Positions 8,140-54,389 of a DNA stretch of 64,000 bases are shown here, in pieces (the first letter of the stretch is position 1; each line of letters begins with the position of its first letter). Source of the stretch: Pecten maximus (Eukaryota); assembly GCF_902652985.1 (NCBI RefSeq), contig NC_047016.1, positions 27,590,001 to 27,654,000 on the forward strand, in the 5' to 3' direction. Both the position numbers and the translations under genes were made by a program. The notes under the pieces are model-generated. The model worked only from the letters and a program-made list of their open reading frames with translations. It was not told the origin of the DNA and made no database searches.

Positions 8140-8211
8140 TTCATTGACGTATCATCCCAGATGTAAGAGGTATGATCTTCAAGCTTTTAAGTGATACAGA
8201 TCTGGAACAAG

Positions 8212-8466
8212 ATGGCTACTAGAGACAGAGAAGCTGTAGAAGGTTACATGTATGACTTAAATTCAGATTCTGGACGGGCCAGAAAATTTAGTGAGAAAGG
8301 CATGCAGTACAATATGGAACAGCTTGACAAAAAATACAAGTCTCTATGTAGGTCAGAGAGATATTTAAAAGAAATAGCCACTGAAGATGACGAACCTTTG
8401 GATATTGTGCGTAAAAAATACAGTATGTGGATGAGTGAGGTTCGAAAAATATTTGGAACTGTATGA
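8212..8466 (+). CDS. N-terminal piece of the BEL/Pao polyprotein, out of frame with the main ORF
   Basis: ATG at 8212 (AAGATGG context) gives MATRDREAVEG... and overlaps the main ORF. Removing one G from GAGG near 8440 fuses the two frames (..WMSEFEKYLELY..). Confidence 0.6.
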   Translation: MATRDREAVEGYMYDLNSDSGRARKFSEKGMQYNMEQLDKKYKSLCRSERYLKEIATEDDEPLDIVRKKYSMWMSEVRKIFGTV

Positions 8467-11400: not shown

Positions 11401-14158
11401 TCAAAAACGGTTTCCCCAAGAAGTTCAGGACACACTGAAAAGAAATATGTATGTCGATGACTGTCTGACCTCCGTTGCTACAGAGAAGAAGGCGATTAGT
11501 CTTATACATGATGTGACTCAAATGTGTAAATCCGGAGGATTCCGACTTACCAAATGGACGAGTAACAGTGATGTGGTTGTGGAATCTATTCCAGAGGGTG
11601 ATCGTGCCCAAGAAGTCAAGTTGTGGAGTCTGGATAGTAAGCCACCTATCGAAAGAGCTCTCGGAGTTTATTGGTTCATGGAGAATGACTCCCTTGGATT
11701 CCAAATTCAGATGAAAGACAAGCCCGTTACTAGAAGAGGTATTCTATCAGTAACCAGCTCAGTGTACGATCCTTTAGGAATTGCATCCCCGTTTGTTCTT
11801 AAGGCCAAGTCAATTCTGCAAAGACTTTGTAGGGATGGTAAGGGATGGGATGAGGAGATCACAGGAAAAGATCTGAAGGACTGGACCGATTGGCTGCTTC
11901 AGCTACCTGAACTAGAGCATGTTACCATTGATCGGTGTTACAAAGGGAAAAACCTCGGCAAGGTAACCTCCTGTCAACTTCATGGTTTCGCAGATGCAAG
12001 TGACATTGGATATGGAATGGTATTCTATCTTCGACTCGTTGATGTCACTGGAAAGATCCACTGCTCGTTCTTGTTCGGGAAGGCGAGAGTCGCACCACTG
12101 AAGGCAGTGACTATACCCCGGATGGAACTTACAGCTGCCTCTTCTCTAGTGAAGTTGGGCAGGATGGTGACAGAACAGCTGAATTACAACATAGATCGTT
12201 TCTTCTTTTGGACTGACAGCACTTCAGTCTTAAGGTATATCGCAAACAAGAATTTGCGCTTCCACACGTTCGTAGCTAACCGCATTGCTCTTATCCACGA
12301 AGCTACGTCGGAAGATGACTGGTATTACATCAACACTAAGGAGAATCCAGCTGATGTTGCATCAAGAGGAACGAGCATTTCGAAGTTGCCTGACTCGTGG
12401 ACTCGTGGACCAATGTTCCTCTGGAAATCCGAACGTGAATGGCCCGTTGTGGAAAAGGATGTTAAGATCGCGGATAAAGAGGATGATCCTGAAATAAGGA
12501 CGACTGCGTGCGCTACATCAGTTGTTTTAGACACAAACAGTGGTGTCGAAAATCTTTTCGACTATTACTCCAACTTTAATAAGCTTAGGAGAGCTACTGG
12601 ATGGCTTATGAGAGCTATGGACAACCTGCAGGGAGCTGTTGAGAGGAGCCGGCAGATAAAACAGGACATCAGCAGTTCAGAATCTGATCCTGTGAAACGC
12701 GACCAGAAAATAAAGTTAGCATTGTCGAAAGAGAGACAGAGTAGACTTCTCAAAGGACAGAAAAACCTTCGTACAGCGTGCCTGTCTGTGGATATTCTGG
12801 AACGAGCTGAAGCCGCGTTGATTAAGTATGAGCAACGAAAGTACTTCGCAGCCGAAAGCAAGATCCTTCACCAGGACAATGGTGTTCAGTCGCGAAAACT
12901 CAAGAAGACTTCGAAATTATTCAAGATGGACCCCTTTGTTAAAGATGGTGTCATTCGCGTAGGAGGGCGTCTTGAAAGAGCTGAAATTTCGTATGATGCA
13001 AAACACCCAGTGGTGTTGCCTAGGGAATCTGTCGTATCGAGACTCGTTGTGGATGATGCCCACAGATCATGTGGTCACTTAGGAAAGAACACTGTTCTTG
13101 CATTCATTCGAGAAAAATATTGGATTGTTGGTGCTCGCACTCTGGTGAAATCTATTCTTTCCAAATGTGTGACTTGTAGGAAATACAGAGCTCCATGTGT
13201 TGAGCAAAAGATGGCAAACTTACCCGCAGAGCGACTCGCAGCTGATCAGCCTCCTTTCAGCAGAACTGGGATGGACTTCTTCGGACCCTTTGAACTGAAA
13301 CGTGGAAGGAGTGTGGTAAAGCGATATGGGGTATTGTTTACCTGTCTTGTGACTCGTGCGGTCCATTTAGAAGTTGCTGCGTCGCTCGATACAGATTCTT
13401 GCATCAACTCCATTCGAAGATTTATCGCTCGCAGAGGAAAACCTGTATTTATTAGATCGGATAACGGAACCAACCTTGTAGGTGCTCAACGAGAAATGAA
13501 GGAAAATATTCAGAAATGGAACACAGACAAAATTCGTGATAACATGTTGCAGAGTAGCATTCAGTGGGAATTCAATCCTCCCTCCGGTTCTCACTTCGGC
13601 GGAGTCTGGGAAAGACTCATTAGGTCTGTGAGACAGGTGTTGTACTCTGTTATGCATGAGCAGAATGCGAAACTAGATGACGAAGGACTTCAGACACTCT
13701 TTTGTGAGGTAGAGGCTATCTTAAATGGACGCCCGTTAACTGAAGCATCGGATAACGTAACTGACCTACGGGTTTTGACCCCAAACCATCTGCTATTGCT
13801 TCAGCCTGGAGAGTATTTCCCACCTGGAACATTCGTCGCCACGGATAACTATGCCAGAAGGAGGTGGAGACAGATACAGTACCTTTCAGATATTTTCTGG
13901 AATAGGTGGACCAAGGAATACTTACCGCTTCTGCAAGGACGCCAGAAATGGATGAAGAAACGACGCAATATGCAGACTGGAGATCTTGTGCTGATCGCTG
14001 ATAGTACACCTAGGCATGCGTGGATAACCGGTAGGATTCAGGAAGTTGTGAAAGACAAACATGACATTGTGCGATTCGTGAAGGTTAAGACCCCTTCCAA
14101 TGTGTTAACGCGTCCAGTGACCAAACTCGTGCTCTTGCTCGAGTCAGACATTGAGTAA
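8435..14158 (+). CDS. BEL/Pao gag-pol polyprotein (Gag, zinc knuckles, aspartic protease, RT, RNase H, integrase)
   Basis: 1907-aa ORF: KFSGDPLEY (Gag); CFFCDSTSHSLDTC, CFGCLKKGHLSKRC, CGICNKSHPSILH (knuckles); FLDTGS (protease); RVVFDCS, GDIEAMF, YVDD (RT); LHGFADAS, PRMEL, WTDS, NPADVASRG (RNase H); HRSCGH..CVTC, DFFGP, SDNGTN, GGVWERLIRSV (integrase). Confidence 0.97.
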   Translation: MRFEKYLELYDILLPQVSSHEHDEFVQRFNENYGSAKQFKSWIENYISSRSAMTLSKNTLSVAEELSVAGEKIDQGIIKKTDPEADDNVSVSSTASSYASLKRIKEEQVRVELETRKLALSKKHEIELAKLSLKLKEEELELDTGIAVAQARSGVLDKYDSNENLNASVDQALAFEQPRFTSPKPRPLPVRFTDESVCASPPPVLYDRPRPHMTGVAEVSSRTLPEQYVDSSHSQTVVQSVVQHLRKPVAEVKKFSGDPLEYRRFIRQFHSKVVINTDDDDERMNYLEQLTFGDAHKVVSGFSHLNGDKAYKAAMSQLEDRYGDEEVIATAFIKKALDWPTIRPGDPKALDDFSLFLVECDNAVGTESNGVLDYSDNIKKLMLKLPFYLHDKWRNQVYKYKEAKRKVRFKDLVKFVKTEAKKINDPTYGSIATGTSRPKTPQKIARSSNAVPEIVTDSIPKSTSDTVPPPAPNYKCFFCDSTSHSLDTCKKITAKPMNERVNFIKEKGLCFGCLKKGHLSKRCRNRSKCGICNKSHPSILHNEESSSVVSVSNASTGYAIAKEDQKGDVSCAMAIVPVRIRLRDKPHSIETYAFLDTGSSASFCTETVMKQLGARGKKTQLTLSTMGEPFIMNTFSISGLQVSDIDSENAIDLPRVFTKEKMPVSKKHIPTQAEVSRWEHLAKVSLAEPNCEIGLMIGSNVPDAYSPIEILAGPSGSPHATRTKLGWVVWNVLRESGTIQVNRVHIQDESGEDIEDMVKRSMNLDFPERLIDDRKENSREDKQFLDMAENSIYKDGEHYCVSLPFRNMVTILPDNSVMAKRRLRSIENRFKADPKFKEDYTTFMETLLEKGHAEPAPVGFDKGKVWYIPHHGVYHKKKNKIRVVFDCSARYQGVSLNDNLLQGPDLTNNLLGVLMRFREEPVAVIGDIEAMFYQVKVPVNERDYLRFYWWPNGNTANEPRSYRMTVHLFGASSSPSVCNFALQKTAEDSQKRFPQEVQDTLKRNMYVDDCLTSVATEKKAISLIHDVTQMCKSGGFRLTKWTSNSDVVVESIPEGDRAQEVKLWSLDSKPPIERALGVYWFMENDSLGFQIQMKDKPVTRRGILSVTSSVYDPLGIASPFVLKAKSILQRLCRDGKGWDEEITGKDLKDWTDWLLQLPELEHVTIDRCYKGKNLGKVTSCQLHGFADASDIGYGMVFYLRLVDVTGKIHCSFLFGKARVAPLKAVTIPRMELTAASSLVKLGRMVTEQLNYNIDRFFFWTDSTSVLRYIANKNLRFHTFVANRIALIHEATSEDDWYYINTKENPADVASRGTSISKLPDSWTRGPMFLWKSEREWPVVEKDVKIADKEDDPEIRTTACATSVVLDTNSGVENLFDYYSNFNKLRRATGWLMRAMDNLQGAVERSRQIKQDISSSESDPVKRDQKIKLALSKERQSRLLKGQKNLRTACLSVDILERAEAALIKYEQRKYFAAESKILHQDNGVQSRKLKKTSKLFKMDPFVKDGVIRVGGRLERAEISYDAKHPVVLPRESVVSRLVVDDAHRSCGHLGKNTVLAFIREKYWIVGARTLVKSILSKCVTCRKYRAPCVEQKMANLPAERLAADQPPFSRTGMDFFGPFELKRGRSVVKRYGVLFTCLVTRAVHLEVAASLDTDSCINSIRRFIARRGKPVFIRSDNGTNLVGAQREMKENIQKWNTDKIRDNMLQSSIQWEFNPPSGSHFGGVWERLIRSVRQVLYSVMHEQNAKLDDEGLQTLFCEVEAILNGRPLTEASDNVTDLRVLTPNHLLLLQPGEYFPPGTFVATDNYARRRWRQIQYLSDIFWNRWTKEYLPLLQGRQKWMKKRRNMQTGDLVLIADSTPRHAWITGRIQEVVKDKHDIVRFVKVKTPSNVLTRPVTKLVLLLESDIE

Positions 14159-14321
14159 TGGATACGGTGAACGCTTGAGTGAAAGGACAATTCGAACTAA
14201 AATATCAGATGTACTTTTGTAATTGTAATTATTGTATGATTAAGCATAATGATTTAATTGATGTGTTTGATGGTTATTAGGCCGTTTTTGCGAATTGATA
14301 ATCTCGGTTGAAGCCTCGATT

Positions 14322-14333
14322 AAGGGGCCGGTA
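14322..14333 (+). promoter_or_regulatory. Polypurine-tract-like plus-strand primer site
   Basis: AAGGGGCCGGTA directly before the 3' LTR, the usual BEL/Pao form. Confidence 0.75.
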
Positions 14334-15179
14334 TGTTACGGCCTAAATGTTAGTTTTATGTTGAATTTATTGTTTAGTTTCATTTGTGGTAATTTTGTTA
14401 AGATTCCGGAAAATACGGTTATCCGGTTTCCGGTTTTAGTATAGACGAATATTATGGGATAGCGTTATCCAAGCGCAGCACATGTTTTGAGTATGAGAAG
14501 ATTCGTTCGGACTATCGTAGGATACGATACGGTAACTAATTACTGTTGAATGATTTGAATATGATTTATGCTTGTTTAGGAATCCATGTCATCATGTTAT
14601 AATGTCATTTTGGATAATTCGGCCAATATATAAATATGTCAGTGAACCGTGGACAGACGACAAGTCCCTCGTGCATTCTAGTCTATCACTTGATTTCTGC
14701 TGTATTTGTATGCTATGATATGATTGATACATTGCTGTTTCATTGCTGTTTAACTCGCTATAAATGTGTAAGAGTAATAGTATCGTAATAGTATTGTATT
14801 TTGCTATATTTATCAGGTTCGGTTAAATTCATTCTGGGCCGAAACGTCCTAGTCTTGTCAAGTCATGTGTATTGTATACTGAATAGTAGAGGGCGAGTTG
14901 TCTCGATCTCATCTACAGATCAAACTCGTCATGTGTTATAGATGATAAGGCATAATAGTAACTGTTGCTTAGTTAATTAGTCTAATAAGTACTGTTTCTT
15001 TTCGTTACAGTCAATCTATCTACGTAGAACTATCATTGAGTCACTACACCTGTACTGTACATGTATGTAGTTGAACTGATGTCAAAGATAATAAACACAG
15101 ATGAAGCCAGGAAGATGGAATTGACCTCATTTATTATTACGATAGCCAGAACGATTTCGAGGCGTATTCGACGCCTACA
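14334..15179 (+). repeat. 3' LTR (846 bp)
   Basis: Matches the 5' LTR except one T>C (GTTGTTTCG vs GTTGTCTCG) and a 3-bp indel (AGTAATTACTG vs AGTAACTG), by eye. Confidence 0.97.
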
Positions 15180-17801: not shown

Positions 17802-18318
17802 CCACATCAAGGTCTACACCTGACTAGATTTTGGTGGTTACACCATCAAGACCTACACCTTACTAGATTTTGGTGATCACACCATCAAGACCTACACCTG
17901 ACTAGATTTTGGTGGTTACACCATCAAGGTCTACACCTGACTAGATGTTGGCGATCACACCATCAAGACCTACACCTGACTAGATGTTGGCGATCACACC
18001 ATCAAGACCTACACCTTACTAGATTTTGGTGGTTACACCATCAAGACCTACACCTGACTAGATGCTGGTGGTACCACACCATCAAGACCTACATCTGACT
18101 AGATTTTGGTGGTTACACCATCAAGACCTACACCTGACTAGATGTTGGCGATCACACCATCAAGACCTACACCTACCTGACTAGATGTTGGTGGATCACA
18201 CCATCAAGACCTACACCTGACTAGATTTTGGTGGTCACACCATCAAGACCTACACCTGACTAGATTTTGGTGATCACACCATCAAGGTCTTCACCTGACT
18301 AGATTTTGGCGATCGCAC
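17802..18318 (+). repeat. 39-bp tandem array (~13 copies), probably the core of a larger non-autonomous element (~17660-18600)
   Basis: Unit CACCATCAAGACCTACACCTGACTAGATTTTGGTGGTTA. Diverged longer copies follow and end in GGTCAAAGGTCAC. A GTCTGTCCGT motif lies upstream, as in mollusc tandem-repeat-bearing MITE/HINE elements (inference). Confidence 0.85.
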
Positions 18319-18740
18319 TTGATCACTCTTAAAACAAAAATCCTGTCTACGTGATATCTGATGATAATAGATTACATAACAGCATCACACCTTCAAGATC
18401 TACGGCTGATTTAATTTTGGTGGCCATCGGTCAAGGTTAAAATCAGTGTTGGGCTTGACCCTTGTGAAATAAAAAAAATCATGTAGACAATACTTCACTA
18501 GCTTTTTGACAGATTTTCACACCATCAAAGTCTACACATGGTTAGATTTTAATGGTCATCGGTCAAGGTGGAAGGTCAAAGGTCACACTGGAAAAATTCT
18601 GAAAAGAAATATAGTATAAAGATAAGATAAAACCAACCCTAACACTATATTTGCTACAGATACATTTTCTTGGTAACTTTAAGTATCAACGTATACAGTA
18701 TTGTGTTTTGTTAATTTGCAGATTGAGCGGTCATTTCAAT

Positions 18741-19547
18741 ATGGATGATATGCTGATGACAGTCGTCCTATCAGTAACATTGCTGTACATGACTGTGTTA
18801 GCGATATGGATTTTTCCAGACCCGATTATTTTACTGTATACAACGTTACATACATTCCTGGTACAAATATCATCGGTGTTCAGGAACAATAGGGCATTGT
18901 CCTGTCTAATTGTTGGAGTATGTGTTTGGCTTCTGGTGGTACATATTGACAGCATAGAAACGAAAAACAAATTAATGAACATTGAAAATACTTTGTTTGA
19001 CTTAAAGGACATTGTCAAATCAAGTATCAAGGACATGAAGAAGATGGAGAAGCATTTCGAAATGTCACTTGAAACTGAAATTCTTGAATTAGAAAATCAC
19101 TTCAGGAAAACACTTCGTGTAAAAATAAACGAGTTGAACAATAAATTATTGCAGAAAATGAGAAACGCTGATAATATTTTAGACGACTTTGATGAAAGAA
19201 CAACAGATATTGAGCGGAAGGTGAAATGTTATGAGAACACATTCCGACATCTAAAGGATTACCTTCAAGAACACGACGAAAAACATGATCAGTTGGAAAA
19301 AGAAATTAATAGACTTTATCAGATGTGTAACAGCTTCATCGAAGAAGGAAAGAAATACCGATTCCACGAGGAGGAAAGAAAAGATAAATATCAGCAGGAT
19401 ATTGGTCGTCATAATCGGGAACCAAGTTTTGTAGTGAAAGTAATTAATTTTGCTATTGATATTGCCGCCGGCGCTATCGGTAACTATCTTGGCGGGGCTG
19501 TCTACAAAGCAGTGTCTTGGGTAGGATCATGGCTTGGCATAACATAG
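18741..19547 (+). CDS. Uncharacterised membrane-anchored coiled-coil protein, paralogue 1 (268 aa, single coding exon)
   Basis: Splice acceptor TTAATTTGCAG (18721), then ATG at 18741. Two hydrophobic segments, a long heptad-rich region and a Gly-rich hydrophobic C-terminus; AATAAA at ~19634. Clear similarity to 23118-23792 with the reading frame preserved. Confidence 0.8.
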   Translation: MDDMLMTVVLSVTLLYMTVLAIWIFPDPIILLYTTLHTFLVQISSVFRNNRALSCLIVGVCVWLLVVHIDSIETKNKLMNIENTLFDLKDIVKSSIKDMKKMEKHFEMSLETEILELENHFRKTLRVKINELNNKLLQKMRNADNILDDFDERTTDIERKVKCYENTFRHLKDYLQEHDEKHDQLEKEINRLYQMCNSFIEEGKKYRFHEEERKDKYQQDIGRHNREPSFVVKVINFAIDIAAGAIGNYLGGAVYKAVSWVGSWLGIT

Positions 19548-20954
19548 TAACTGTACACCTACAGCGCCGATAATAGGTATACCTCTTAAACCATACATAG
19601 ATATGGACAATTTATTTCTTTTAGGTATGCTTAAATAAACTGTTGAGAAAAATATTCAATTCTTGTTATATCTTTCCTTTTTTTCTTATCATCATTAAAT
19701 AAGATAAATGTAACTACAATATCCAACAAAAGGTCAAAATAAATGTTACATGTAAATACATCTAAGAAATAAAAACATAAGAATATTCATTTTTGCATTT
19801 AATTTCAAAGTATCTTACCTATTAATGAGAGTTATATGATCCATTGATATTTCAGTAAACTCATGTTTGTACCCTGCCTATAACAAAGCTATTGACATAT
19901 TCTATTAATTGAATTAGATTACGATTTTCATCACGTACATAATACTACATCATACAATTATACATGAAAGGTAATGCGTATATCGTGACGTAAATTGGTA
20001 AACAATTCTCCCTACACCAGGCTTCTATTCATCCGCGACTTTGATATGTTCTTATATTCGGCGAAACGATATAGGTCGTGACCAACTTGATATCGAAGTC
20101 TAGTTTCATCCATTGTTTGAATGTGAACATCAGTCGATGGTTCGTATTAGAAAATAAATCCCAATCACTACTTTGTGTGTTCTCCATATACTGTGATAAG
20201 GCTACTTCGAATACACGTTAACAAACAATAGAAGCGTGCCTTGGAAACAAATCTTTAAATTGAGGCTGTCTATATTTTTTCAGACATATCTTGTCTTAAT
20301 TCGATGGGCAAGATCTACACCTGGATATATAGATATGTACAGTATCTTCTAGTATTTACTACATAAATTTACAAGTGGAGCTAATATTTTTTTCGATTGT
20401 GCAGTAAGAGTGAAAAATATTAAAATATTATTCACACGAGTGAAATAAATTTGGTGTACTGAAGACACTGTTAGATATTCTATTTACTGTATTACATTTT
20501 CATAGAAAAACATACCTGATCAAGTTTGAATCTTCCCAATTGTCGTTTGTAAGCAGTGTTTTGATTAGTCAAATCGAAAACAATTTTATAAAAAATACCT
20601 CTTTTATAGAATGAATAAATTTGTTATTTCACTGGTAAAAATTTACTTAAAGGTTTTCCTGATTATTATCAAAAGATGGTGAAAGCGTATGAAATGTCTA
20701 AAGAAACTATACAGTCACTTAAAATTAACGTAACAGCAATATTTTTATAGAAAGGACTTAAAGTAAAGATATATTTTCACCCAATAATCTGAGAGTCACC
20801 AGATCTCGATCTCTTCTTTCCTTAAGAAGATCTGGTCTATAAATTTAAATTTCGGCACGGAAGGAATACCAAGTGGAGAATTATTGGTAAGCAAATTAGA
20901 TGTCGATCGATATCGTGTACATGTCATATGTATATATAATAGCACTGATAAGTA

Positions 20955-21400
20955 TTACCAAAGGTCATTATATGGGTCACCAAAGGTCAAAGGTCAAATT
21001 GCTTATCAATGTGGACCAATGTCGTATACATTTCATATGCATATCATATTACAGTTTGAATATATACCAAAGGTCATTATATGGGTCACCAAAGGTCAAA
21101 GGTCAAATTGTTTATGTTACATGAATATCTTGTAACAGTGTAAAGTTATTTCAATTTCAAAGGTCATCATATGGGTTACCAAGGGTCAAAGGTCAAATTA
21201 TTAATCAATGTAGATCAATATCGTATACATTTTACATGCATATTATAGAACAGTGTAAAGTTATACGTAAGGCCATTATCTGGTTGATTAAAGGTCATAG
21301 GTCAAATTATCAATTAATGTCAATAAATCGTATGTTAAGGGACATCTTTTTAAAGTAATGCTAATGGTCATTATCTGGGTCACTAGTTGTCACGTGTTGA
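20955..21400 (+). repeat. Degenerate ~90-110-bp tandem repeat rich in AGGTCA
   Basis: AAAGGTCATTATATGGGTCACCAAAGGTCAAAGGTCAAATT recurs 4-5 times with decay. Confidence 0.8.
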
Positions 21401-22090
21401 AGTGTTAATAAATATACATAAGTATTATATACATTTTATATACACTTCTCATAACAACCTAATGTGATATCAAAAGTCACCTAATGTCACAGGCTATTTT
21501 ATTTTACAAATGTCATTCAATATCGTTTATACATTGTATCATGTAAGCATATCTTATCGCAACGTCTATGACCATGTAAACTGGTACCGAGATCCAATAC
21601 TTGTGTGGTTCACTATTCAACGGGGTCCATTTTCAACGGGTATGTAAAGAAAATTTAATACAATGTATATGGTTCCATTTTCCACAGGGGTCTATTTTCA
21701 ACGTTACACCGGTGGTATTTCGATCGTTTCAAGGGACGCGAATAAAGGCGGCATATTGTCAGCTGTAGTCACTCGAAAAAGTAAGTAACATACATTCATA
21801 TAATTTTATGTGCGATTGAACGTTAGGTTTTATTTATAATCACCATCGATTGAAACTACCCAAGATAAGTCTTTGGTTCGTTTGATGAAATGTGAATTAA
21901 CTTGGAAACATTATTCAAATGAGTACTTAAGTATTTCGTAATTACTCCCATAATAAGCATCACTGTTGTTTGTTATCTGCCATCAATGATATGAATATGA
22001 AAAATGATTAAGATATTGGTTTATATGACCTGTATATAAAAGAAATAAATTCAAATACACAAACGTAATAAAAAGCAAAACGAATAAAGA

Positions 22091-22109
22091 ACTTTCACTT
22101 TCGCTTTCC
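22091..22109 (-). promoter_or_regulatory. ISRE/IRF-E-like motif
   Basis: ACTTTCACTTTCGCTTTCC equals GGAAAGCGAAAGTGAAAGT on the minus strand: three GAAA cores with 2-nt spacers, ~1 kb upstream of the paralogue 2 ATG. Function untested. Confidence 0.5.
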
Positions 22110-23117
22110 GTGAAAACGTATTACAACAGATACGAAGAAAGTAAAAGTTGATATAACTTAATAGAGGTGTGTTTTGTATCAATGTGAGGCAATACAACAC
22201 AGGTTAGAGCATGTGAACGAGACACATTCGGTTTGAAGCATATCTCATTATCATGAACAAATTAATTGTTACTTTAGCGCGTCGATATAAGTAATTGACA
22301 AATAATTGTTTTTCAAAAAAATGAAAATAAAAATCTAACACGCTGTTGCTGTATGCTGTTTTGTATGAATGGTAAACGTTTGCAATGATATTCCCTTTTA
22401 GGATTTGAGCTGGGTGTGTAGTACACAGAAATTAATTTCTTCTCATAACCTAATCACTAAGCCAACGAGAACTGCAACAGAAAAAAACGAACTCCAAGCA
22501 GAATATATGTTTATAAAGTAAAAACAGGTAGGATAGGAGGGCGTACGTTTCTTAATATTAGTCGTCCAATATTTATTTCAAGATTTCCAAAACACCCTTT
22601 CTTGTATCTCAAGAAAAAGTTTAAACAAAGCACCACCGATCATAAGGGACACGTTCGATCCATCCATCTGATGGTGCAAGGGGAATAACTCTTATTTAGT
22701 TATGGTAACAAACAGTTGAAGCAACGAAGTTAGTATAGAATAGTTCTCATTCGACGAACACATTCGTCAACATAATTCGCCCATTATGTATTGCCCATTC
22801 GTCGATAGAGCCTACAAATGTCAAACACATCATCTTTCTTCAACAAAACCATCTATTTGTAAACAATTGATGTAAATACAATATTCCATTAGCAATAGTG
22901 TGATATAACTAAGTAAAAACAACACAATTTCTTTATTTCTGAAATGTTTAATGTTCTATCAATAACTAAAGACACTAAAGGGCGATTACCACTATATGCG
23001 AGATACATGCGTTTGCTAATCATGTGTGTGCTTTAGAAGGCTTTCGCGTAACTTAAATTATTTTATTTACAACACAGCTCTTTATTTTGCAGACTAGGCC
23101 CTATTTATCATTTCAAC

Positions 23118-23792
23118 ATGAATGATTTGCTGATCATCATCGCCGCAACTGTATTATTGGTGTATATAACAACGTTAGCAATATGGCTTTCTCCGGGTCG
23201 GATTATTCTACTTCATGCAACGTTACATGCATTCTTGGTACAAATATCATCAGACTTCAGGAACAATAGGACATTGTCCTGTTTAATTTTTGGAGTATGT
23301 GTTTGGCTTCTGGTGGTACATATTGACAACATACAAACGAAAAACAATTTAATACATATTGAAAATCAGTTCAGAAAAACCTTAGAAGTTGAAATAAACG
23401 AATTGAACAATAAGATATTATGGAAAATGACAGCAGCTAATAGCATGATTGACAACCTTGAAGAAAGAACAACGGCTATTGATTGGAAGATGAACCATTA
23501 TCAGACTGTGTTACAGTATCTAAAGGATTACTTTCAGGAACACGACGACAAACATTATCAGTTGGAAAAAGAAATGAATAGACTTTATCAGATGTATAAC
23601 AGCCTCATCCAGGACAGGGCGGAATACCGATTCCGCGAAGAGGAAAGGGAAAATAGATATCAGCAAGAAAGAGCTCGAAAAAAAGATCGGGAAACGAATC
23701 CGATTGTGAAAATAATTAATGCAGTCCTGGGTTTTTTTGTTGACGCTGTTGGTAAGTTTGTGTTCGGGGGTGTCAACAAATTACTAAATTAA
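23118..23792 (+). CDS. Uncharacterised membrane-anchored coiled-coil protein, paralogue 2 (224 aa)
   Basis: Acceptor TTTATTTTGCAG (23092), ATG at 23118. Shares FLVQISSxFRNNRxLSCLIxGVCVWLLVVHID and QLEKExNRLYQM with paralogue 1. A candidate upstream non-coding exon ends AAAA|GTAAGT at 21780. Confidence 0.82.
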   Translation: MNDLLIIIAATVLLVYITTLAIWLSPGRIILLHATLHAFLVQISSDFRNNRTLSCLIFGVCVWLLVVHIDNIQTKNNLIHIENQFRKTLEVEINELNNKILWKMTAANSMIDNLEERTTAIDWKMNHYQTVLQYLKDYFQEHDDKHYQLEKEMNRLYQMYNSLIQDRAEYRFREEERENRYQQERARKKDRETNPIVKIINAVLGFFVDAVGKFVFGGVNKLLN

Positions 23793-24689
23793 ACGAGATG
23801 TATTGATCGGTGATTAAGATTCCACATTTGTGTATATGGTACTGAAGGATTACCGCCCTGCCATAAGTCAGTTTTATGAAAGCAAATTTAATAAGATGCA
23901 AGCTATGGTAGCAGTGTACAGTAAAAATGCCCAATTTTGAAAAATATGACACATGTCTTAGATATGTAAACATTTCCAGTTAACCCTGCATATAAACTCT
24001 AATAAAGTATATATATTTGTAATCTGTACAACATTTGCAATTTTAATACAGCTCTGAAGGATAAGTTAACTGATATTTTCTGTGATTTTTAGAGCTGTGA
24101 ATACCATGGTAACAGCTTCAAAAATGCTCAAAAATTGCAAAATATTATGATATTTGACCAAAAATGACACAATTCTCTACACATTTTTTTTTTTGAAACC
24201 TATTTAAAATTAAATATCTCTATCCCAAAGACAGAATTAATCTTGTTTTGACATATGTTGTAAATTAAGTTTTTCCGCTATCTCACCTTTACTGTGGGCA
24301 TCCATTTTTCGCTGTAGGCAAAACTAAATTTCCTGTGTAAACACACTTGCGGAAAATCCGGAAATTTAAAATCCGGAACCAATTTATTAATTTTTGTTTT
24401 AACAAATGTGAAGCATGTATGTACTTCTTCATACTGAATATACCAATTATAGTGTACATTTATTTTTTCATTTTTTTTATGCATATCATAATACAGGAGT
24501 TATTTGCTTAACAAAAAAATTGCCATGGCCAGGCTGTCCTACTGTAGAGTGCTACCTATATGCATCTTCAGGAATGAAATGGGATTGGGTACTGTAATAT
24601 AGGTTCGGAATGTAATCCCTTGGATGGATTTTCCAAATTTGTACAATCAATAACAGTTCTGCAATGTCGTCCTGTGTCATCTCACGTCA

Positions 24690-24790
24690 TCACTCAGTAA
24701 CCATATATGGAGGTGTGGAAGCAGTGTCTTGGGTTGGGGCATTTCTTGGCATGACATATCTAGTACACTTAGGGCGCCGATATATTTCTA
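24690..24790 (+). pseudogene. Relic 3' end of a further paralogue of the TM-coiled-coil gene
   Basis: GCAGTGTCTTGGGTTGGGGCATTTCTTGGCATGACA...GCGCCGATA matches the end and 3' UTR of paralogue 1 (AVSWVGAFLGMT vs AVSWVGSWLGIT). Confidence 0.6.
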
Positions 24791-27585
24791 CTGCCTGCTG
24801 AAAACTATATATCATTGTATATAGCATGCCTACCTTATATCTTTGTTTTAATATGTTGGTGACTACGATATAAAATATAAGATATTTGTCCTTTTTGGTC
24901 TTGGGCCAGATTTATCAGTGATTCCTTAACTTATAAGTTCCTCACCTAAATATTTCCCTTAAGATAATCATAACAGAATTTAAGAAAGATTTCTTGAATA
25001 AGATTTTATTTTTACCAATCTGTAGTGCTTTCATATGGGGAGTTTTATGGTAAGGAATATTCTGAGGTATAGAACGGCGAATGGAAACGTGGCAAGCTGA
25101 TAATCATCAAATGCTGTCTCGGATGGTTATTGCTTGACAGTCACTCGACGTTCTAATTTTAGTTAAAACGTTATTGGGGGTTTATTATATATCTACATTT
25201 GTGATTTAAAAAAAAAACCTATGATAATGTTTCTATTGATATCATGTTGGGTTACATTCGAAATTTCGTAAAAAAAAAAAATCAAAAAAAAAAATCAAAA
25301 AAAAAAATCAAAAAAATCAGGAATTCCCAATTGGTAAAACCTAATCTTGATAATATTTCAGTTTAAACAATGCTTATACTTATACGGAGAACGAGATTTT
25401 AACAGAATATTAAAATACAGTAATTCGCGTTCTATATATGATATATAGAAACAAGATTTAAATGATATGATATAAAAATATCTCGAATAGCATATGAGAT
25501 ATTATCTTTTTTTAATTACGATGTCTCAATTAATTTAATATAGGAGTTATCGTTAGTTATGTATACATTATGTACATATATCTCATACAATATTTCAGAT
25601 ACATCGGCAGCAATTCCTCTTGAATAAATGTTAAATGAACATGCCATATAAATGATTGATGTTAATTATATCACCGAATATTCAACAGCTTTCTAGGCGA
25701 CGCTACGTTCAACAGAATGTCTTGAGTAGTATCTCGTATTGTCAAAACATTAATGGTTTACATAACACGCCTTAAAATGCATTCAAACACACATATGATA
25801 CATTTCCAGTTTTAAAGTTTAACTGGAGACATTTTCTTGGGACTTGAACAATCTTGAAACAAAATATTTACATCACCTATGGGATGATAATCTCTAATCG
25901 AATGCCATGACATTGATATATGAATAACTTATGGGGAAAATGCACTTCATCTAGTTCTGGTTACAAAGATAAGTTTCCCGGTTTTATTGTACATATGTAC
26001 ATATGTGGTTCACAGCTTTTTATTCTTGAAGTTATACTTTTGTACTAAACTTTGCTAATTGTGCTTGAAAAAGCTAACACTTGCGTTGCTAAGGTGTTAA
26101 CTGTTGCTATGGAATTAAATGTGCTTAAACTCAGTCATTGACTTGGTGTTTTTCATGGTAATCGTAAAATGTCTTTCATCAGTATTAGTGATGATGCTTA
26201 TATAAGTTAATTTTTACGTAATCATTTTAGGTGGATATCGTTTCGTTAAATACTGGTAATTTTGTCTATAGCTATGGGTTTTCGTGGCTACGGAGATTAC
26301 ATATTTCAAAACAGTACATCAATAACTTAAGATATTATGTATCTGTATTTCCATGACATACATATGTGTGGAGGATGAAACACTTTCTGGGTATCACAAT
26401 ATTAATTGCAATGCGTAAATACGGATGTAGACAAAGGCAATCGGCAATAAGTTCAAAAAGGTGCTATATCTTTTATGTCTTTAGTGTAATTCTTTGGTGT
26501 GTGTTCTTGATACCAAAGGGTTTATCATACAAATCACATGTATGACACGTTCCTGTGTGGATACAAGAGAATGCAATTATTGTTCATGTCTTTTTCAAAT
26601 ACTTTTTAAGAAAATAAAATTACAAACATCAAAGCTAATATGCATATGTAAGAGATTCTGTCTACATTTTGTTAGAATACTAGAATGGCGCTCCTGCGTT
26701 ATGCTTCAGGCCATTTATATATTGTGATTTCCTGCGATTACACCGCAGGGTACATGTATTCTTTGTCATGAATCTGAAAAAAATCCATCTGGTTAACCGG
26801 GATATGTGTGCATTTTTTCGTGTAAAAACATGGCTTCGAAACCGCAACGGCGGCATAGCGAGTGGGAATCACAGTATGGCAGGATAATGATAGAAAGATG
26901 GAACGAGTTCAAGAAAGAAAACGAATCTAATAACAATGGTGACGTGGCGTATCATATGTGAGAAGTGAAATTAACATATCTCATAAATTGAGTCATAAAT
27001 TCTCAATATACACATATTAGAAAAGAAAACTTGATATTTAAAAAAATATTAAATTTGCGAGTAAAACCTATCTATTTAGTAAACATTGAGTATAATGTAC
27101 GTGTTGCAATATCTACGAACAAGGAAGACGATGTATTATTCGTATTTATTAGTTAAAAATATAACCATTATTTAGGTATAGTGCAAGCATGACACAATAT
27201 TTGGCAAAACAATTTAAAACTAATTCAAATAAAACAAAACAGACATACAACGCATCTTAGCTTGAAATGGAAATAAATGTTGCTCATTAAAAGTATGACG
27301 AAATACCTACGTTCCTATAAATCAAACAAGCACGCTACGCCATAACAAAATCTAAAGAAATATTGAGGGAATAAAACAAGAATGCCATTGATATGTAGCA
27401 TATGTTTCCTCATACATTCCTAAAATACACATCAGCATAACATCGTCTGCTGAAAGGGAGTAAAAGGATCTAAAATGAGTTTTTTTTTCAAAAATGTGTT
27501 AAATAATATTTGTCAAAAAACATCAAACACGGAAGGTAAACAAATACACGGAAACAGTTTGTATCTCCAGGAATCACATCAGAAC

Positions 27586-27657: not shown

Positions 27658-28013
27658 ATCAGAACAATCAAAATATATTCTGGTGCTCAATTTTCTACAT
27701 ATGATATAATGATAATCGGAATTTATTTCAGAATAAGGAGACAGATAGGCAATACACATTATAGAAGTATTACATCATAAAAATATAATTTCATTACCGG
27801 CAATAATATTATGCAGTGCAAGAATATCAACTGGCGCCCATGTATATCTGATAAGAAAAATATCAAGTTTCAATGCGTGTCCTTGTTCCAATGCCAGCAA
27901 TTAACATGCGGACATACAATATGGATTTTGCATTGTTTCACGTCTGTCTAACATGTCGCATTAGGTATCTTTCTATAACATCCCCAATGTTGGAGTGAGT
28001 CAGGGAAATCTTG

Positions 28014-31000
28014 TTACTTTCTTTGTTCAAACGTAAAAGTAACAGGTTTGTCAAGCGTCTGAATGATTTGGAATTTAAGTCCTAATTCATCTGTTGGGGT
28101 AGTGATCTTGAACTTGTTAAGAAGCTTTGCCATCATCACGTACATATCCTGCTCGGCTATTCGTCGACCTATATGAAAATAAGACACACATTGTATTATC
28201 GTATCAAATGCATGTATTCATTGTTCAAACCTATACATGTTTAATCCATTGGTTGGAAAAGAGTTAACGAGTGTACCAGTGAAAAGTTAGCCTAATGTTT
28301 GTGACAGTTAAAGATTAATGTGTGTTTGTTTGTTCCAGTTAAATGTCACCCTCTGTTAATGTTTGTACTAGTAGTGTTACCCTCTGTTAATGTTTGTTCC
28401 AGTTATGTTACCCTCTGTAATATGTGTACCAATTTCAATGCCAGTAAAATGTTACTATCTATTAGTGCTTGTGGCAATTACAAAAAAAAACAAAAACATT
28501 TGGGGCAGATAAATCTAACGCCAAGTAAATGATGGAACTATCTAAAAGTTGCCCATTGTTGTCGTGAATTTCATTTAAGTGATTAATCTATATTTGTAGT
28601 TAGTATAGGCTGACTGTTAACCCATATTTTAGATAATTGTTACTATTGCTAAATATTCAATAAACTGACAACAAACCTATACACATCCTCGGACCATGGC
28701 TGAAGGGTATAACGATGAAGGGGTGATGATTTCTGAAATATTTGCTGCCCCTAAGCCAACGCTCTGGTCGGAACTCCATGGGATCATCAAAATACACGGG
28801 CGACCACTGGTGTACGAAGGAACACATCTCTATGACAGTCTATTGGAAATTCAAAAAATGTATTTTAAAATTTTGTCTTTTGTTTGATTCTCAATACTTT
28901 TCATTGGATAAAACAGTTACCATAATTTATATCCTTGGATCTACAGGGTCAGGGCTATTTCGATTCTGATGGGAACACTAATGCAAGGTGTATCATTTGT
29001 TGAATTTGAGATATTGTTGAGTGGTCATCTTCTTAAACATAGGTCATCTATAATGCATTTTTAAATGAACACAGTGTGCACAAGGTGTTCGATACTGTAT
29101 TTATAACTGTTTTCATGATGATTTGACTTTTATGATACCGCAGTCATTATAATATTGATTTTTAGGGACTTCGAAAAGCTTTTAATCAGTTTTGAACACC
29201 CGGTTATGATACACGTTTCTGGCTGTTTGAACATTTCAAAATGTATAATATGTACACTGCCATATCTGGTTTAAAAAAACTTTATTCTTTTGTCTTTAGA
29301 TTATTATTTGCAGTTGCAAAGGCGAACGTCAACAGGTGGTCTCGAACTAAGGCTATTTTAAAATATACTGAAGTTGAAATGGTGAGAATGACTGTATTTT
29401 TTTATTCTACAATAGTTTTGATGAGCAAAATCGTAGAAAGATAATATAACGCCATTGTATTGCACACAAGACTTTTAGTTTCATAGGAAAAAGGGTAAAA
29501 ATGACCTTGACAATTCTTTCATTTTCTTTTATATTGATTATGTGTACGTCTTATTGTAGATAAAAAGATAGTCACTGACCTTTACCCGCTTATTTATGTG
29601 AACCTACATATTTATCCACATTAACTGCTTATATCTCAATCCTTTCCTGCATTTGGTCTCAGTGATAACTTTCCTTGTGGAATATGGAGTTTTATTGTTT
29701 ATGTGTCTAAAGAATGCATTGTCACTGCCCCGTTTCCATTTTTGACCACGTGACATTGTTAGATATTCCTCGTGTACTTTAAAACAGTATCAATGTAAAA
29801 TTTAATATTTTATCCATGCACGTGTAATTTGCCCTGCTTTTGATGTTTTTAGAGACAAAAAAATCCTGATTAAATTAAACGTCGACGTTCTCGTATATTG
29901 TACATAATGATTTTCTTTCACGTCTCAATGCAGCTTGAAGATAAAAACCACTCCTTATAAATGTGTATAAAAAGTAATATTTATTCTGCTAATATTTTGA
30001 TTACTTAGTCATTGAACTCATCAATAAAAGGTAGGGATGTTCACTAAGACAGCTTTTCAGCGAAGTGTAGTTATTTCAAATACTTATATATACACATTTA
30101 GTATAGACTGTATCACCGATGTCAACATAATAGCGTAAAGGGACATTTAGTTCGATAGGATTAGTTTAACATAAGGAACACAGGTAAACAATGTATATAA
30201 TCTCACCCCAGCTGGTATCTGGAACCCTCCCACTGCAATATTCTTATCCAATATCCTCTTAACGTCTAGGTTTAAAGGGTACAGCCTGTTGACGAAAGAA
30301 GAACAGTTATTGATTAATCTATGTATATACATACTGCTAACATTCTGTATATGAAAAACATATAAAGGAATAAAGCAAATTGGTCGAATGTTTATAGCTT
30401 AACATATATATTATAATAAAACTCATAGAAACAGAAAGATACCAAATGTATACATGTACTGGTATACTATGATGAACATACTTTTCAAATGGTATACATA
30501 TCGTACATACATTGTATAATGTAAGTAAACAAAATACTGGATATATAACAAACTAATAGTATACACCTCCCTGATCTCTATAATAAAGTGGATATAACAG
30601 AACGAAACAGCACACAAAAATAACACGTTCAAACAATTACGACATAAGTACACATGCTGACCTGAACGACTCCTTGAAACATGCCTTCAGATATGATAAT
30701 TTGTTTAAAACGTTGAGAGTTATGTAACCATCTTTAGGGATGTGTTGTTGTATCTCTTCAAACGCCCTTTCCTGGATTTCTGGATTCTTTGCGAGGCAGT
30801 ACATTGCTAGTAACAGTGCTGGTACCGTCTACAGAGTATAAAATACACTAAGATAGTTTATAAAATTATCAATAGTCCCATTACAAATGAATAAATAAAT
30901 AAGCAAGCATAACAAGTTTGCAATGTTCAGGATTTTGTTGTTGAAAATCAAATCATTGCAAAATGAAGCATAACAACTGAGGCTTCAGAGGTAATAAAGA

Positions 31001-34000
31001 AACCATAGATTGATAAAACTCACACAAAGATTCCTTAAATATTACAAGGAAAATACAGTATATATCCTTTAGATCAACGACGACCCCTTATACAAATCTA
31101 GGTAACATTCCGGTCAAAATATCAAAATGTGAAATAAAGTGGAAACATAATAAAAGAATACGAAAAAAAAAAAAAATGAAATCACCACTGCCTATCTGAA
31201 ACTTCGGAGACGTAATCTGTCCCTGCTGGTGACGTAAGCAAAGATCAAGGTAGGCATAACGATGTTATTTTCACCAATATTAGTAAAAATCAACGAAAGT
31301 CAGATAATTAATTCCAACACAAATTTTGCTTCAATTTTCAAAACTTTCAATAAGAGACTTCAATTTTGTTGCTAAGTCATTGATGCTAGTTGTGATAATG
31401 ATTGACACAAGTAAACAATGTGGTAGTACGAAAGAAAATATTATGAAATAAAATATTTTACTAGTTTCTCTCAATAATAGAATCATAAACAATCATCTTC
31501 TCTCTCAGTACTACACACAATACTCACCGCATTAAGTCCGTCAGCGAACACTGTGAGGGCTGTGATGTTGATATCTTTGTTGTTGAGATTTGTGTTAGAA
31601 AGAAGATATGAAAGAAACATGAACTTTCCTTCCTGTAGCTCGTTCTCGTCAACCAGTTCCTTGATACGAGATACCGTCGAGTTTATGAGATTCCTGCCAT
31701 CGCTTTGCAACAAAACCAAACCATAAGTAAAGTTAAAATAGTTGAATGAACAATAGATAGTTAGATATCAACTGATCACCAATTTGAACATATCGCACCA
31801 ATCCAATAACATCATACATGAAGATATACTTCAAAAAGCAATTATTTAAAAAGTATAAAAAAAATGTTTATACTAAATACACTTCGAAAAACATGTGTTT
31901 ATAAGTCATTAGATTGAACAATTAAACAAACATTATACGACAGATTTTGACTTTAAGGAAACCAACTTATGTGATTTTTAATACCGGTTTATTTCACGTT
32001 TGATATTTAATTACTTCAAGAGGAAGAACACAGTGTGTATTATAGATGTATATTCCAGTTATGACATTCAAATCAATAACTGCTACGCTCATGAAAAAAG
32101 TTTCGGTCATCGCTGCGAAAGGTGTTTATACTTCTAATAATTTAGAGTATATTCTTATGGTATTAGTGAACTAATTAGAGGTATGCTCTTCCGACAAGTA
32201 TTTGAGCATGTACGGAAATCAACACTTTATTCTCTGTCAAACGTCAGAGCTAATGTTGTACCTGTAGAAGTAGTCTTCCGCTGCGTAGTGAAGTTTTGAA
32301 AGTCTTCGATATGTTATGAAATCCCAAGGAAGTACAAACATTAGTTTTGTGGATAAATCAAATATATCGTGATTTGCCTGGATCATTCTCTGCGAATGAG
32401 ATTCGAATCCCTCCTTTAGTGCTCCAAGTCTCCTCTCAAAACAAATCATCCCGGCAGCTGTACAAGAAGGACAGGTAAAATATGAACATTTTATATAGAG
32501 TGTATGTATTTCTGTCTCGATAAACATCAATATCCAAGCTTTGCGCTTATTCTTTCTTTGAGTTAAATTCATCTTATCGATATGGAGAATGCATTCCATC
32601 AGTATGGTTGTTGATAAAATATCTTAGCTCTACGTATATAAAATGATTACGATCAACATTGATTTATTTTTCTGTATTATAAGTAACGTTATCAACTTAT
32701 TTCAGATGACGCCAGACACAGCCTTACTTTCCATATTCCATCTTCCCGCCAAATAGTTAAAATTTTCGAAATTCCCATCTGTATCCTTTCTGATGCATAT
32801 TTCGTCTATGACGTCATCAGCTATCTCATTCACAAACGGCAGAAACTGAGCTACCTCCTGGGGACGCATCATTACTATTTGAATGGCCTTCCTCATCGTG
32901 TTCCATTCCTCTCCGTTACTATAAAACATCAGTAATACTTGTGTGTTGAATACATATAATAATACAAAAATCATCTACCTGTATTGTGTGCAGGTGAACA
33001 GTTCGGTCAATAAGAGGACACCAAACCCCTGTTTAATTAAGTGTTTTGTACTTTTGTTTAGAAAAAAACATTTTTATATTAAGAGGAACTATCTTAGGTT
33101 ATAATATGATAATAATGAAGAAAAGAGGAATTATTGTAACTTGGGGAATACTGATGAAACAATTATAACGAATGGCATTTAGTTTAAGCTTCTTAAGTGT
33201 AAACATTCAGATGAAAATAATGTTTTAATCAAGTTTAAAGAAACATGAATGAGTCTAAGATATTTGTTAATTCTAAGATTCTAGGAATATAATACTTATT
33301 TTTTTGCATTTGTAAGAATCACCGTTAATACACGGATGATGTAGTTTATTTTTAACTCACATATTTCCCAGCCCAGGCGACATGCCTTTCGTTTCGCGAT
33401 ATTTTCGAGAACTCTCCAGAATGGGAACAATATTTGGCCATACCCCTTCGTGTTGGTAGACTCTCTGTACATGATCCGGGTCAAACAGTCGGACATGCGT
33501 GCGGTTTCCTATTGTTTCCTTGACAACAGATCCATACAGTTTCCATCGTGACTCCAGTACTGCTTGATATTTGTCTATGTCGTATTTCTTGAAAGGACCT
33601 TTTAACAAGAAAATGCGTAGTAAATAATGATTACCTCCATAAAAACGAAACCAAAAATACACGGTGTTTTTAAATTATTTGTCATGATCATACGCATTTA
33701 ACGAAGACTATTTGTTATACATTTGGCATATTCCGTTAAGTTAGATGCATGAATTCTATAGGTGATTGGACAATAAGATGGGGAACTATCTTGTGTAAAA
33801 CTAGCATACGTGTGTAGGTTACAAGGTTTGATGCCGTCAGTATATTTTATATGCTTAACTTGTTATAGTGAAATTTTTGCACGACAGGCCACAGCGGAAG
33901 GCCAAAATTAATCTAATATCGATGTTTTTATATCATAAAGGATGATCCATATCAATTTTAATTGTATTGTGTACATGCTATACAAATGCTTAAGCTATTG

Positions 34001-37900: not shown

Positions 37901-37958
37901 AAGCGTTTCTACGTCAGGTGTATCAGTCAAACACTACCAACAGTATCCGCAAGTTTTT

Positions 37959-54308: not shown

Positions 54309-54312
<4 letters not shown>

Positions 54313-54386: not shown

Positions 54387-54389
<3 letters not shown>

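What the first reader, a model, noticed from the sequence alone, without database searches (positions are those of the whole stretch)
18741..23792. Orphan tandem gene family with a tetherin-like layout: N-terminal membrane anchor, long coiled coil, hydrophobic C-terminus
Seen: two intact paralogues (268 and 224 aa), each with a single coding exon, two N-terminal hydrophobic helices, ~130-160 aa of heptad-rich sequence and a Gly-rich apolar/amphipathic tail. They show many amino-acid differences, and I recognise no family motif. Established: BST2/tetherin works through this kind of double-anchor rod topology rather than through sequence. Inference: with tandem duplication, a relic copy and a nearby ISRE-like motif, this is a candidate invertebrate antiviral or membrane-tethering family. 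Organelle-tether or ApoL-like roles are alternatives.
Basis: partly seen in the sequence, partly recalled or inferred. Interest (0 to 1): 0.7.

Follow-up and report, generated by a model that had tools for sequence, protein, structure and literature searches.

The report
Scallop double-anchor rod protein family
A scallop carries two transcribed copies and one broken copy of a fast-changing gene so far found only in scallops, whose protein is predicted to be a rod with a membrane anchor at one end and a membrane-binding helix at the other; a nearby DNA motif resembles antiviral switches, so it is likely an immune membrane tether, but it is not a tetherin and its function is untested.

Summary
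ORFs A (268 aa) and B (224 aa) are intact and transcribed, each with one coding exon. They are the only copies found in the genome, plus a frameshifted 3' relic. The only homologues found are two uncharacterised scallop proteins (41-44% identity), with no family or fold match.

Anatomy: two predicted transmembrane helices around a basic loop, a 120-210 aa helical rod, and an amphipathic Gly/Trp tail. The tail looks like neither a transmembrane helix nor a GPI signal. Its last 18 residues are the most conserved part across species, and B has lost them. The BST2 hallmarks (single type II helix, GPI signal, conserved Cys, glycans) are not met.

The ISRE-like triple is rare (203 in 918 Mb) and sits 0.3 kb into the intron after a unique 5' exon. 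One transcript contig joins that exon to gene A, although it lies downstream of A in the assembly. Tests of whether such motifs mark immune genes in this genome were inconclusive.

Best reading (0.35): a likely IRF-inducible membrane-bridging effector that would work like tetherin without being one. Topology, induction and function are untested.

The parts
18722..19643 (+). Gene A coding exon (19 nt of 5' UTR, ORF, 3' UTR; AATAAA at 19634)
   Evidence: Acceptor. Contigs of 6 runs from 6 studies lie between 18711 and 19643, none at 19722-20185. Poly(A) signal.
18741..19547 (+). ORF A, 268 aa, full-length family member
18750..18950 (+). Predicted N-terminal membrane hairpin of A: TM1 (aa 4-22), basic loop with a weaker helix, TM2 (aa 52-70)
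   Evidence: Hydropathy in 4 of 4 family members; loop 2-5 K/R, N-flank acidic; helices in both AF2 models
18951..19421 (+). Helical rod of A (aa 71-227), with a predicted break at aa 178-182
   Evidence: low-confidence models (mean pLDDT 59.9 and 53.6)
19425..19544 (+). Amphipathic Gly/Trp-rich C-terminal tail of A (aa 229-268); last 18 aa most conserved across species
   Evidence: 16/18 identical with Mizuhopecten, 12/18 with Ylistrum, against 41-44% overall
21700..21780 (+). Non-coding 5' exon ending at a GTAAGT donor (start approximate; may extend further upstream)
   Evidence: Run X9 contig joins 29 nt identical to 21752-21780 to gene A at 18723. This part is single-copy in the assembly. 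No ATG in 21690-21780.
22093..22114 (-). Triple ISRE/IRF-E-like motif (22093-22108) overlapping a GAS-like palindrome (22106-22114)
   Evidence: region single-copy
23118..23792 (+). ORF B, 224 aa; shorter rod, lacks the conserved terminal motif; exon starts at 23093
   Evidence: contigs cover 23142-23935 in pieces
24600..24900 (+). Frameshifted relic of a third copy (tail codons and 3' UTR); limits approximate

Best explanation
This is a fast-evolving, tandemly duplicated gene family, so far found only in scallops, whose product is predicted to be a membrane-anchored helical rod that likely bridges two membranes as an IRF-inducible innate effector. Shown: intact transcribed ORFs, scallop homologues, hydropathy pattern, conserved amphipathic tail, rare ISRE-like motif. 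Inferred: TM1-basic loop-TM2 inserts as a hairpin with the loop in the cytosol, so the 18-31 nm rod (if fully extended) would face the lumen or cell exterior. The conserved Gly/Trp helix at its far end would lie on a second bilayer (a budding or entering enveloped particle, or a vesicle) and hold it, replacing tetherin's GPI lipid with a peptide anchor. Paralogue B, with a shorter rod and no terminal motif, would be a weaker variant or a modulator.
For: Architecture shared by 4 of 4 family members, except the tail end lost in B. Loop carries 2-5 K/R and the N-flank is acidic in 4 of 4. Terminal 18 aa are the most conserved segment across species (binomial p 1e-4 to 0.02, segment chosen after inspection). 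Rod length varies by indels (122-212 aa), as expected of a spacer. A/B dN/dS is 0.66 (bootstrap 0.45-0.95); 9 of 12 contig-level variants in A are non-synonymous, 4 of them at aa 226-247. The triple IRF-E-type motif is the only strict one in 214 kb and occurs 203 times in 918 Mb against 92 for the reversed control, so P is about 0.0015 for a 7 kb locus (post hoc). It lies 0.3 kb behind the donor of an exon that one contig joins to A. Oyster IRFs are virus- and poly(I:C)-induced and activate ISRE reporters (PMC5557890, passages). An OsHV-1 variant kills scallops (PMC3623871, listing and passages). In A, C163 and C196 sit symmetrically about the predicted turn (about 2.6% of random pairs would), which would fit an oxidising compartment.
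Against: No induction data. Motif calibration was inconclusive: in 20 motif-centred loci, 2 held ISG-like domains (G-patch+FtsJ, 3CxxC), against 1 of 20 controls with an immune-type domain (Mab-21); only the 150 longest ORFs of each set were scanned. Upstream of 4 IRF and 6 RLR loci (199 kb) there was no triple, and double motifs were 6 in 199 kb against 7 in 350 kb of controls. No such motif lies upstream of A in the assembly. Topology is uncertain: 0 sequons were found at least 14 aa from TM2 against 3.4 expected over the four proteins (not independent), the rod Cys are not conserved, and TM1 could be a signal peptide, which would put the rod in the cytosol. dN/dS is below 1, so relaxed constraint explains it equally well. 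Both AF2 models break the rod at about aa 178-182, and the structural matches cluster on an antiparallel hairpin at 136-228, which would shorten the reach. A common allele, I241S, makes the tail less apolar. The copy number is small (2 plus a relic; 1 protein each found for the other two scallops).
Confidence: 0.35

Rival explanations
1. Constitutive intracellular tether or membrane shaper: TM1 is a signal peptide or the hairpin is reversed, the rod is cytosolic (or in the mitochondrial intermembrane space), and the amphipathic tail captures vesicles, lipid droplets or another organelle, as golgin ALPS ends or Mic60 lipid-binding helices do (mechanisms recalled). The ISRE-like motif would be incidental.
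For: No sequons in the distal rod and no conserved rod Cys. The tail is an amphipathic helix rather than a GPI signal. Transcripts are present in 18 of 24 listed runs from 6 studies. About 45% of triple motifs are matched in number by the reversed control (92 against 203).
Against: Core tethers are usually widely conserved (recalled), whereas this family was found only in scallops at about 41-44% identity. Positive-inside charges favour an exoplasmic rod. 6 of the 24 listed same-species runs hold next to none of the sequence (not proof of absence).
Confidence: 0.3
2. IRF-inducible membrane disruptor or pore former, working like ApoL or IFI27/IFI6 (recalled). The N-terminal hairpin and the small-residue zipper of the tail (A243-G247-G251, S259/G262-G266) would oligomerise in one membrane and permeabilise it or alter its curvature, and the rod would serve for assembly.
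For: Gly/Ser face opposite a Val/Trp/Leu face in the tail; same ISRE and divergence evidence as the best explanation; predicted hairpin break in the rod.
Against: No ApoL, ISG12 or pore-forming family among the Pfam rows shown, and none in the PDB profile search. A permanently anchored protein needs no soluble-to-membrane switch. Variable rod length fits a spacer better.
Confidence: 0.2
3. Lineage-specific non-immune surface protein (gamete, mantle or adhesion role) whose fast evolution reflects sexual selection or relaxed constraint.
For: Taxon restriction, high dN/dS and birth-and-death duplication are also typical of such genes (recalled).
Against: It does not explain the rare triple IRF-E-type motif. 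Tissue of the runs is not given, so there is no positive support.
Confidence: 0.13
4. True, highly diverged BST2/tetherin homologue.
For: Tetherin orthologues share topology rather than sequence (PMC10617486, passages).
Against: Two N-terminal hydrophobic helices, no cytoplasmic tail or YxY motif, no GPI-like signal, no conserved Cys or glycans. The recognised neighbours are a cytochrome P450 and retroelements.
Confidence: 0.02

Closest known systems
BST2/tetherin (and TMCC(aT)/CCDC194, PLVAP)
   Same: A rod-like coiled coil with a membrane contact at each end, poor sequence conservation, lineage-specific duplicates including copies that lost the C-terminal anchor, and ISRE/GAS elements near the start (PMC10617486 and PMC9599465, passages). 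Long TMCC(aT) isoforms are predicted to use a hydrophobic peptide at the C-terminus.
   Different: Two N-terminal helices instead of one type II helix; no cytoplasmic tail or YxY; conserved amphipathic tail instead of a GPI signal; no conserved Cys or N-glycan sites; single coding exon; no sequence similarity detected; rod orientation unproven.
XP_060064290.1 (Ylistrum balloti LOC132544683) and XP_021368356.1/OWF43205.1 (Mizuhopecten yessoensis LOC110459998)
   Same: True homologues (E 1e-58 and 2e-56) with the same layout and terminal motif.
   Different: Both are uncharacterised. The Mizuhopecten rod is 57 aa longer. The A/B duplication appears to post-date the split from both (support 92/93, not starred).
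Golgin-type and MICOS Mic60-type tethers (recalled)
   Same: Membrane anchor, long coiled coil, amphipathic lipid-binding helix at the far end.
   Different: No significant sequence match (a Mic60 row at E=0.58 is noise); these are widely conserved and constitutive.
Apolipoprotein L and IFI27/IFI6 interferon-stimulated membrane effectors (recalled)
   Same: Helical, membrane-acting, fast-evolving, tandemly duplicated, interferon-type regulation.
   Different: No Pfam match in the rows shown; different order of elements.

Membership tests
BST2/tetherin | Short cytoplasmic tail followed by a single type II transmembrane helix | tested here: not met
   Two hydrophobic helices (aa 4-22, 52-70) and only 3-4 residues before the first, in 4 of 4 members; hydropathy only, no TM predictor available
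BST2/tetherin | Extracellular coiled coil | tested here: inconclusive
   Helical heptad-rich rod present; side of the membrane unresolved (positive-inside for, lack of sequons against)
BST2/tetherin | C-terminal GPI anchor signal | tested here: not met
   Last 12-25 aa KD only 0.7-1.1, invariant K256, strongly conserved in sequence, absent in B; heuristic test, no dedicated GPI predictor was run
BST2/tetherin | Conserved ectodomain cysteines for dimerisation | tested here: not met
   Rod Cys: A C163 and C196, Ylistrum C121, none in B or Mizuhopecten; the only invariant Cys is in TM2
BST2/tetherin | Conserved ectodomain N-glycosylation sites | tested here: not met
   0 sequons at least 14 aa beyond TM2 in 4 of 4 proteins
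BST2/tetherin | Cytoplasmic dual-tyrosine (YxY) motif | tested here: not met
   No N-terminal tail and no conserved Tyr in the loop
BST2/tetherin | Locus between CILP2 and PLVAP | tested here: inconclusive
   Recognised neighbours are a cytochrome P450 and a Pao-type retroelement; CILP2 and PLVAP were not searched for, and the 214 kb region was only screened for long ORFs
BST2/tetherin | Detectable sequence or fold similarity | tested here: inconclusive
   No BST2 row in Pfam (25 of 26 rows shown for A, 6 of 6 for B), in the PDB profile search (9 rows) or in fold searches; models are low-confidence and tetherin orthologues often lack similarity
BST2/tetherin | Interferon-type inducibility | tested here: inconclusive
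   ISRE/GAS-like motif present; calibration inconclusive; contigs cannot show induction
BST2/tetherin | Blocks release of enveloped virions | not testable with these tools
   Needs a cell assay
Apolipoprotein L / ISG12 | Match to the family profile | tested here: not met
   No such family among the Pfam rows at E up to 0.1 for the 4 members (19 of 19 families listed)
Golgin-type or Mic60-type tether | Cytosolic or intermembrane-space rod with an organelle anchor | not testable with these tools
   Localisation needed; no sequence match

The most novel reading that the evidence does not exclude
An independently evolved invertebrate tetherin analogue: an IRF-induced scallop protein that traps enveloped virions (for example malacoherpesviruses) between a transmembrane hairpin and a conserved amphipathic peptide anchor, with no GPI lipid, possibly expressed from one shared ISRE-linked first exon that is spliced to alternative coding exons.
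Probability: 0.13. Interest if true: 0.85.

Novelty: new variant of a known kind. Interest (0 to 1): 0.42.

Why it matters
Molluscs have an IRF/ISRE antiviral system (PMC5557890, passages), but few of its lineage-specific effectors are known (my own knowledge). A scallop-restricted double-anchor rod that can be cloned from one exon makes it directly testable whether physical virion tethering evolved outside vertebrates, and whether a peptide helix can stand in for the GPI anchor. B is a natural tail-less control. It may bear on herpesvirus mortality in farmed scallops. If the rod is cytosolic or not induced, it is an ordinary lineage-specific membrane protein of modest interest.

Tried and rejected
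Homology: a word-indexed search with A alone found 0 of 391 candidates. phmmer over 1.84 billion representatives gave 3 hits; I dropped P0004 as a repetitive spurious ORF. The profile search returned only the same 2 of 4802 candidates, and 0 of 7993 longer proteins (weak evidence). Shorter proteins were not searched with the profile. There was no match in phages, metagenome contigs (0 of 416 stretches) or viral contigs (0 of 439). The ESM Atlas gave no feature hit for either homologue. All Pfam rows are sub-threshold coiled-coil noise.

Folds: Foldseek found nothing at E<=0.001 in PDB or BFVD. The best VIA Z was 10.0, under the level quoted for helical bundles. The homodimer prediction for the rod gave no answer (score 0.02, alignment not used), which is no evidence either way.

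Gene structure: B has an in-frame GT-AG option (donor near 23752, acceptor near 24698) that would attach the relic's tail motif. I rejected it for now: contigs in X1 and X6 run through the donor unspliced and no such joint was listed in 4 runs. The other 5' sequence of A seen in X15 and X6 was not found in the window or genome. There is no homology between the upstream regions of A and B. A loose end at 22012 maps to another contig, which showed no similarity to the window; I left it unexplained. A transposon origin of the ISRE was rejected because the region is single-copy. The bacterial promoter scan was irrelevant.

Literature: 0 papers for LOC110459998 and 0 for tetherin with OsHV-1. The 20 papers listed of 2,913 had no occurrence of tetherin. 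Searches showed nothing on this family in their listings. The two primary tetherin-evolution papers were not held and are known to me only through PMC10617486. No supplementary files were searched; scallop expression tables there could bear on induction.
Full report
1. Observation. Both ORFs are as described: A at 18741-19547 (268 aa) and B at 23118-23792 (224 aa). Each starts 19-25 nt behind a pyrimidine-rich AG acceptor. Three own-genome searches, with A, B and the Mizuhopecten homologue, found only these two loci among 28, 14 and 67 scored candidates. A frameshifted relic of the tail and 3' UTR lies at about 24600-24900. No further copy was found in 100 kb upstream or 50 kb downstream.

2. 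Transcription. Of 24 listed runs, 18 from 6 studies hold at least half of A's sampled words. Of these, 4 are on record as RNA, 10 are guessed RNA and 4 are of unknown kind; the other 6 runs, with the same species label, hold next to none. In the 6 runs laid, contigs lie between 18711 and 19643, the longest ending just behind AATAAA at 19634, with nothing at 19722-20185. This exon-shaped cover argues for RNA. B is covered in pieces: near-identical in X1 and X6, but only about 93% identical in X10 (19 differences in 271 nt) and X15 (16 in about 250 nt, plus a 3-nt gap), so a divergent allele or an unassembled copy exists (tables cut). Contigs cannot show level, strand or induction.

3. An unexpected gene structure. 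One contig (X9) carries 83 nt before position 18723. Of the 30 letters shown, 29 are identical to window 21752-21780, which ends at a GTAAGT donor and is single-copy in the assembly. That exon lies downstream of A. In X1 the A contig starts exactly at 18722, and another contig, by its record numbers, ends at about 21780 (my inference). X15 and X6 instead carry 81 and 67 nt before 18711 whose visible end is absent from the assembly; X10 has 75 unaligned nt at the same place, letters not shown. No 21780-to-B joint was listed in the 4 runs laid over it. The simplest readings (inference) are a structurally different haplotype or a collapsed duplication in the assembly, in which this exon or a twin precedes A; back- or trans-splicing is less likely. 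A young Pao-type element (LTRs 99.5% identical, 5-bp target duplication) sits 3.5 kb upstream of A.

4. Relatives. phmmer over 1.84 billion representatives gave two real hits, uncharacterised proteins of Ylistrum balloti and Mizuhopecten yessoensis (E 1e-58 and 2e-56). Profile searches added none. The window is therefore most likely from a scallop, and the family is scallop-restricted as far as these libraries reach. Identities are 41-44% from A to the other species and 57% between A and B; A and B group together (92/93, below the starred level). Pfam, PDB sequence, PDB and viral fold, ESM Atlas, phage, viral-contig and metagenome searches gave nothing significant.

5. Anatomy. All four proteins have TM1 (about aa 4-22), a loop with 2-5 K/R, TM2 (about aa 52-70), and a rod of 122-212 aa that is 36-43% charged, with 3.5-3.75 periodicity. 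Both low-confidence AF2 models show a long helix broken at about aa 178-182 and a separate tail helix. The tail has an amphipathic first half (moment 0.32-0.50) and a Gly/Ser-faced, Val/Trp/Leu-faced second half. On a crude insertion scale it scores 4.4-7.4, against -2.2 to +0.7 for TM1 and TM2. Its last 18 residues are the best-conserved segment between species (16/18, 12/18, 12/18), which is unlike a cleaved GPI signal (established knowledge) and suggests a retained binding helix. B ends before this motif. Positive-inside charges put the loop in the cytosol and the rod outside. Against that, no sequon occurs in the distal rods (3.4 expected), and TM1 could be read as a signal peptide. I put an exoplasmic rod at about 60%.

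6. Evolution. Nei-Gojobori A/B dN/dS is 0.66 (bootstrap 0.45-0.95): 0.66 for the N-terminus, 0.52 for the rod and 1.04 for the tail over 34 codons. Of 12 variants in A's own contigs, 9 change the protein (pN/pS about 0.8); some come from contigs under depth 5 and may be errors, and I left out 5 further rows that come from cross-mapping B contigs. This is weak constraint, not proof of positive selection.

7. The ISRE-like motif. GAAA-GC-GAAA-GT-GAAA-GT on the minus strand at 22093-22108, overlapping a GAS-like nonamer, lies 0.3 kb into the intron behind the 5' exon. It is the only strict triple in 214 kb and is not part of a repeat. The pattern occurs 203 times in 918 Mb against 92 for its reversed control. 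The consensus is recalled and the test is post hoc. Two calibrations were inconclusive. First, 20 motif loci, picked from the first 100 listed as mixed-type motifs, yielded a CMTR1-like (G-patch plus FtsJ) gene and an RTP-like (3CxxC) exon, both vertebrate ISG types by recall, among housekeeping and transposon domains; 20 control loci about 1-2 Mb away yielded one Mab-21 gene. Second, upstream of 4 IRF and 6 RLR loci there was no triple; double motifs were 6 in 199 kb against 7 in 350 kb, although two tandem RLR paralogues share the motif in a conserved context. Oyster IRFs activate ISRE reporters (PMC5557890, passages). A scallop IKK did not (PMC9879056, passages).

8. Mechanism. I commit, at 0.35, to a likely IRF-inducible membrane-bridging rod: hairpin in one membrane, amphipathic tail on a second, rod as spacer. 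The rivals are a constitutive organelle tether (0.30), an inducible membrane disruptor (0.20), a non-immune surface protein (0.13) and a true BST2 homologue (0.02). The genes, transcription, layout, conservation pattern and motif are shown. Topology, tail binding, oligomer state, induction and antiviral action are inferred.

9. Comparison and novelty. Tetherin is defined by a cytoplasmic tail, one type II helix, an extracellular coiled coil and a GPI anchor, with conserved Cys, Asn and YxY motifs and CILP2-PLVAP synteny (PMC10617486 and PMC9599465, passages). Five of these features were tested and not met, so this is not filed as BST2. That it works like tetherin stays open, since hydrophobic-peptide and anchor-less variants exist among vertebrate relatives. 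I found no paper on the family (supplements not searched). Verdict: a real, uncharacterised, scallop-restricted family and a reasonable candidate immune effector; new variant of a known kind; interest 0.42. The tetherin-analogue case has probability 0.13 and interest 0.85 if true.

Noticed in passing
window 7291-15179: Young Pao-type LTR retroelement: 849-bp LTRs 99.5% identical, 5-bp target duplication, intact 1855-aa ORF with RT and integrase-linked domains.
   Followed up: partly
window 1-3300 (-), continuing upstream: Overlapping long ORFs (396 and 761 aa; a 360-aa frame just outside the window) that look like a DIRS-type retroelement by recall; Pfam gave nothing for the 396-aa ORF.
   Followed up: no
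window about 27950-34570 (-): Multi-exon cytochrome P450 gene converging on the cluster (3 of 5 exons hit PF00067); resembles the mitochondrial clan by recall.
   Followed up: partly
window 24495-25260: Contigs cover the relic and beyond (depth 38.7 in X6, also X1, X10, X15); strand unknown: relic transcript or long 3' UTR of the P450 gene.
   Followed up: no
window 23230-23777: A B-type sequence only about 93% identical in runs X10 and X15, against near-identity in X1 and X6: divergent allele or extra copy missing from the assembly.
   Followed up: partly
window 18711 and 21752-21780: 5' ends of gene A transcripts do not fit the assembly: one joins a downstream exon, others carry sequence absent from the genome.
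   Followed up: partly
window 17805-18309, 37700-44400, 50000-57800: Tandem arrays (39-bp unit, 12.8 copies; larger satellites) that give long repetitive open frames.
   Followed up: no
L092:1755-4993; L081:7151-9540; L128:2080 and L130:5314: ISRE-like motifs 1.3 kb upstream of a G-patch/FtsJ (CMTR1-like) gene, about 2 kb before a 3CxxC (RTP-like) exon, and in a conserved context upstream of two tandem RIG-I-like loci: candidate scallop ISG promoters.
   Followed up: partly
window 48894-49484 (-): 196-aa open frame with a signal-like segment and a cysteine pattern reminiscent of a PAN/apple domain (recall); no Pfam hit at E 0.001.
   Followed up: no
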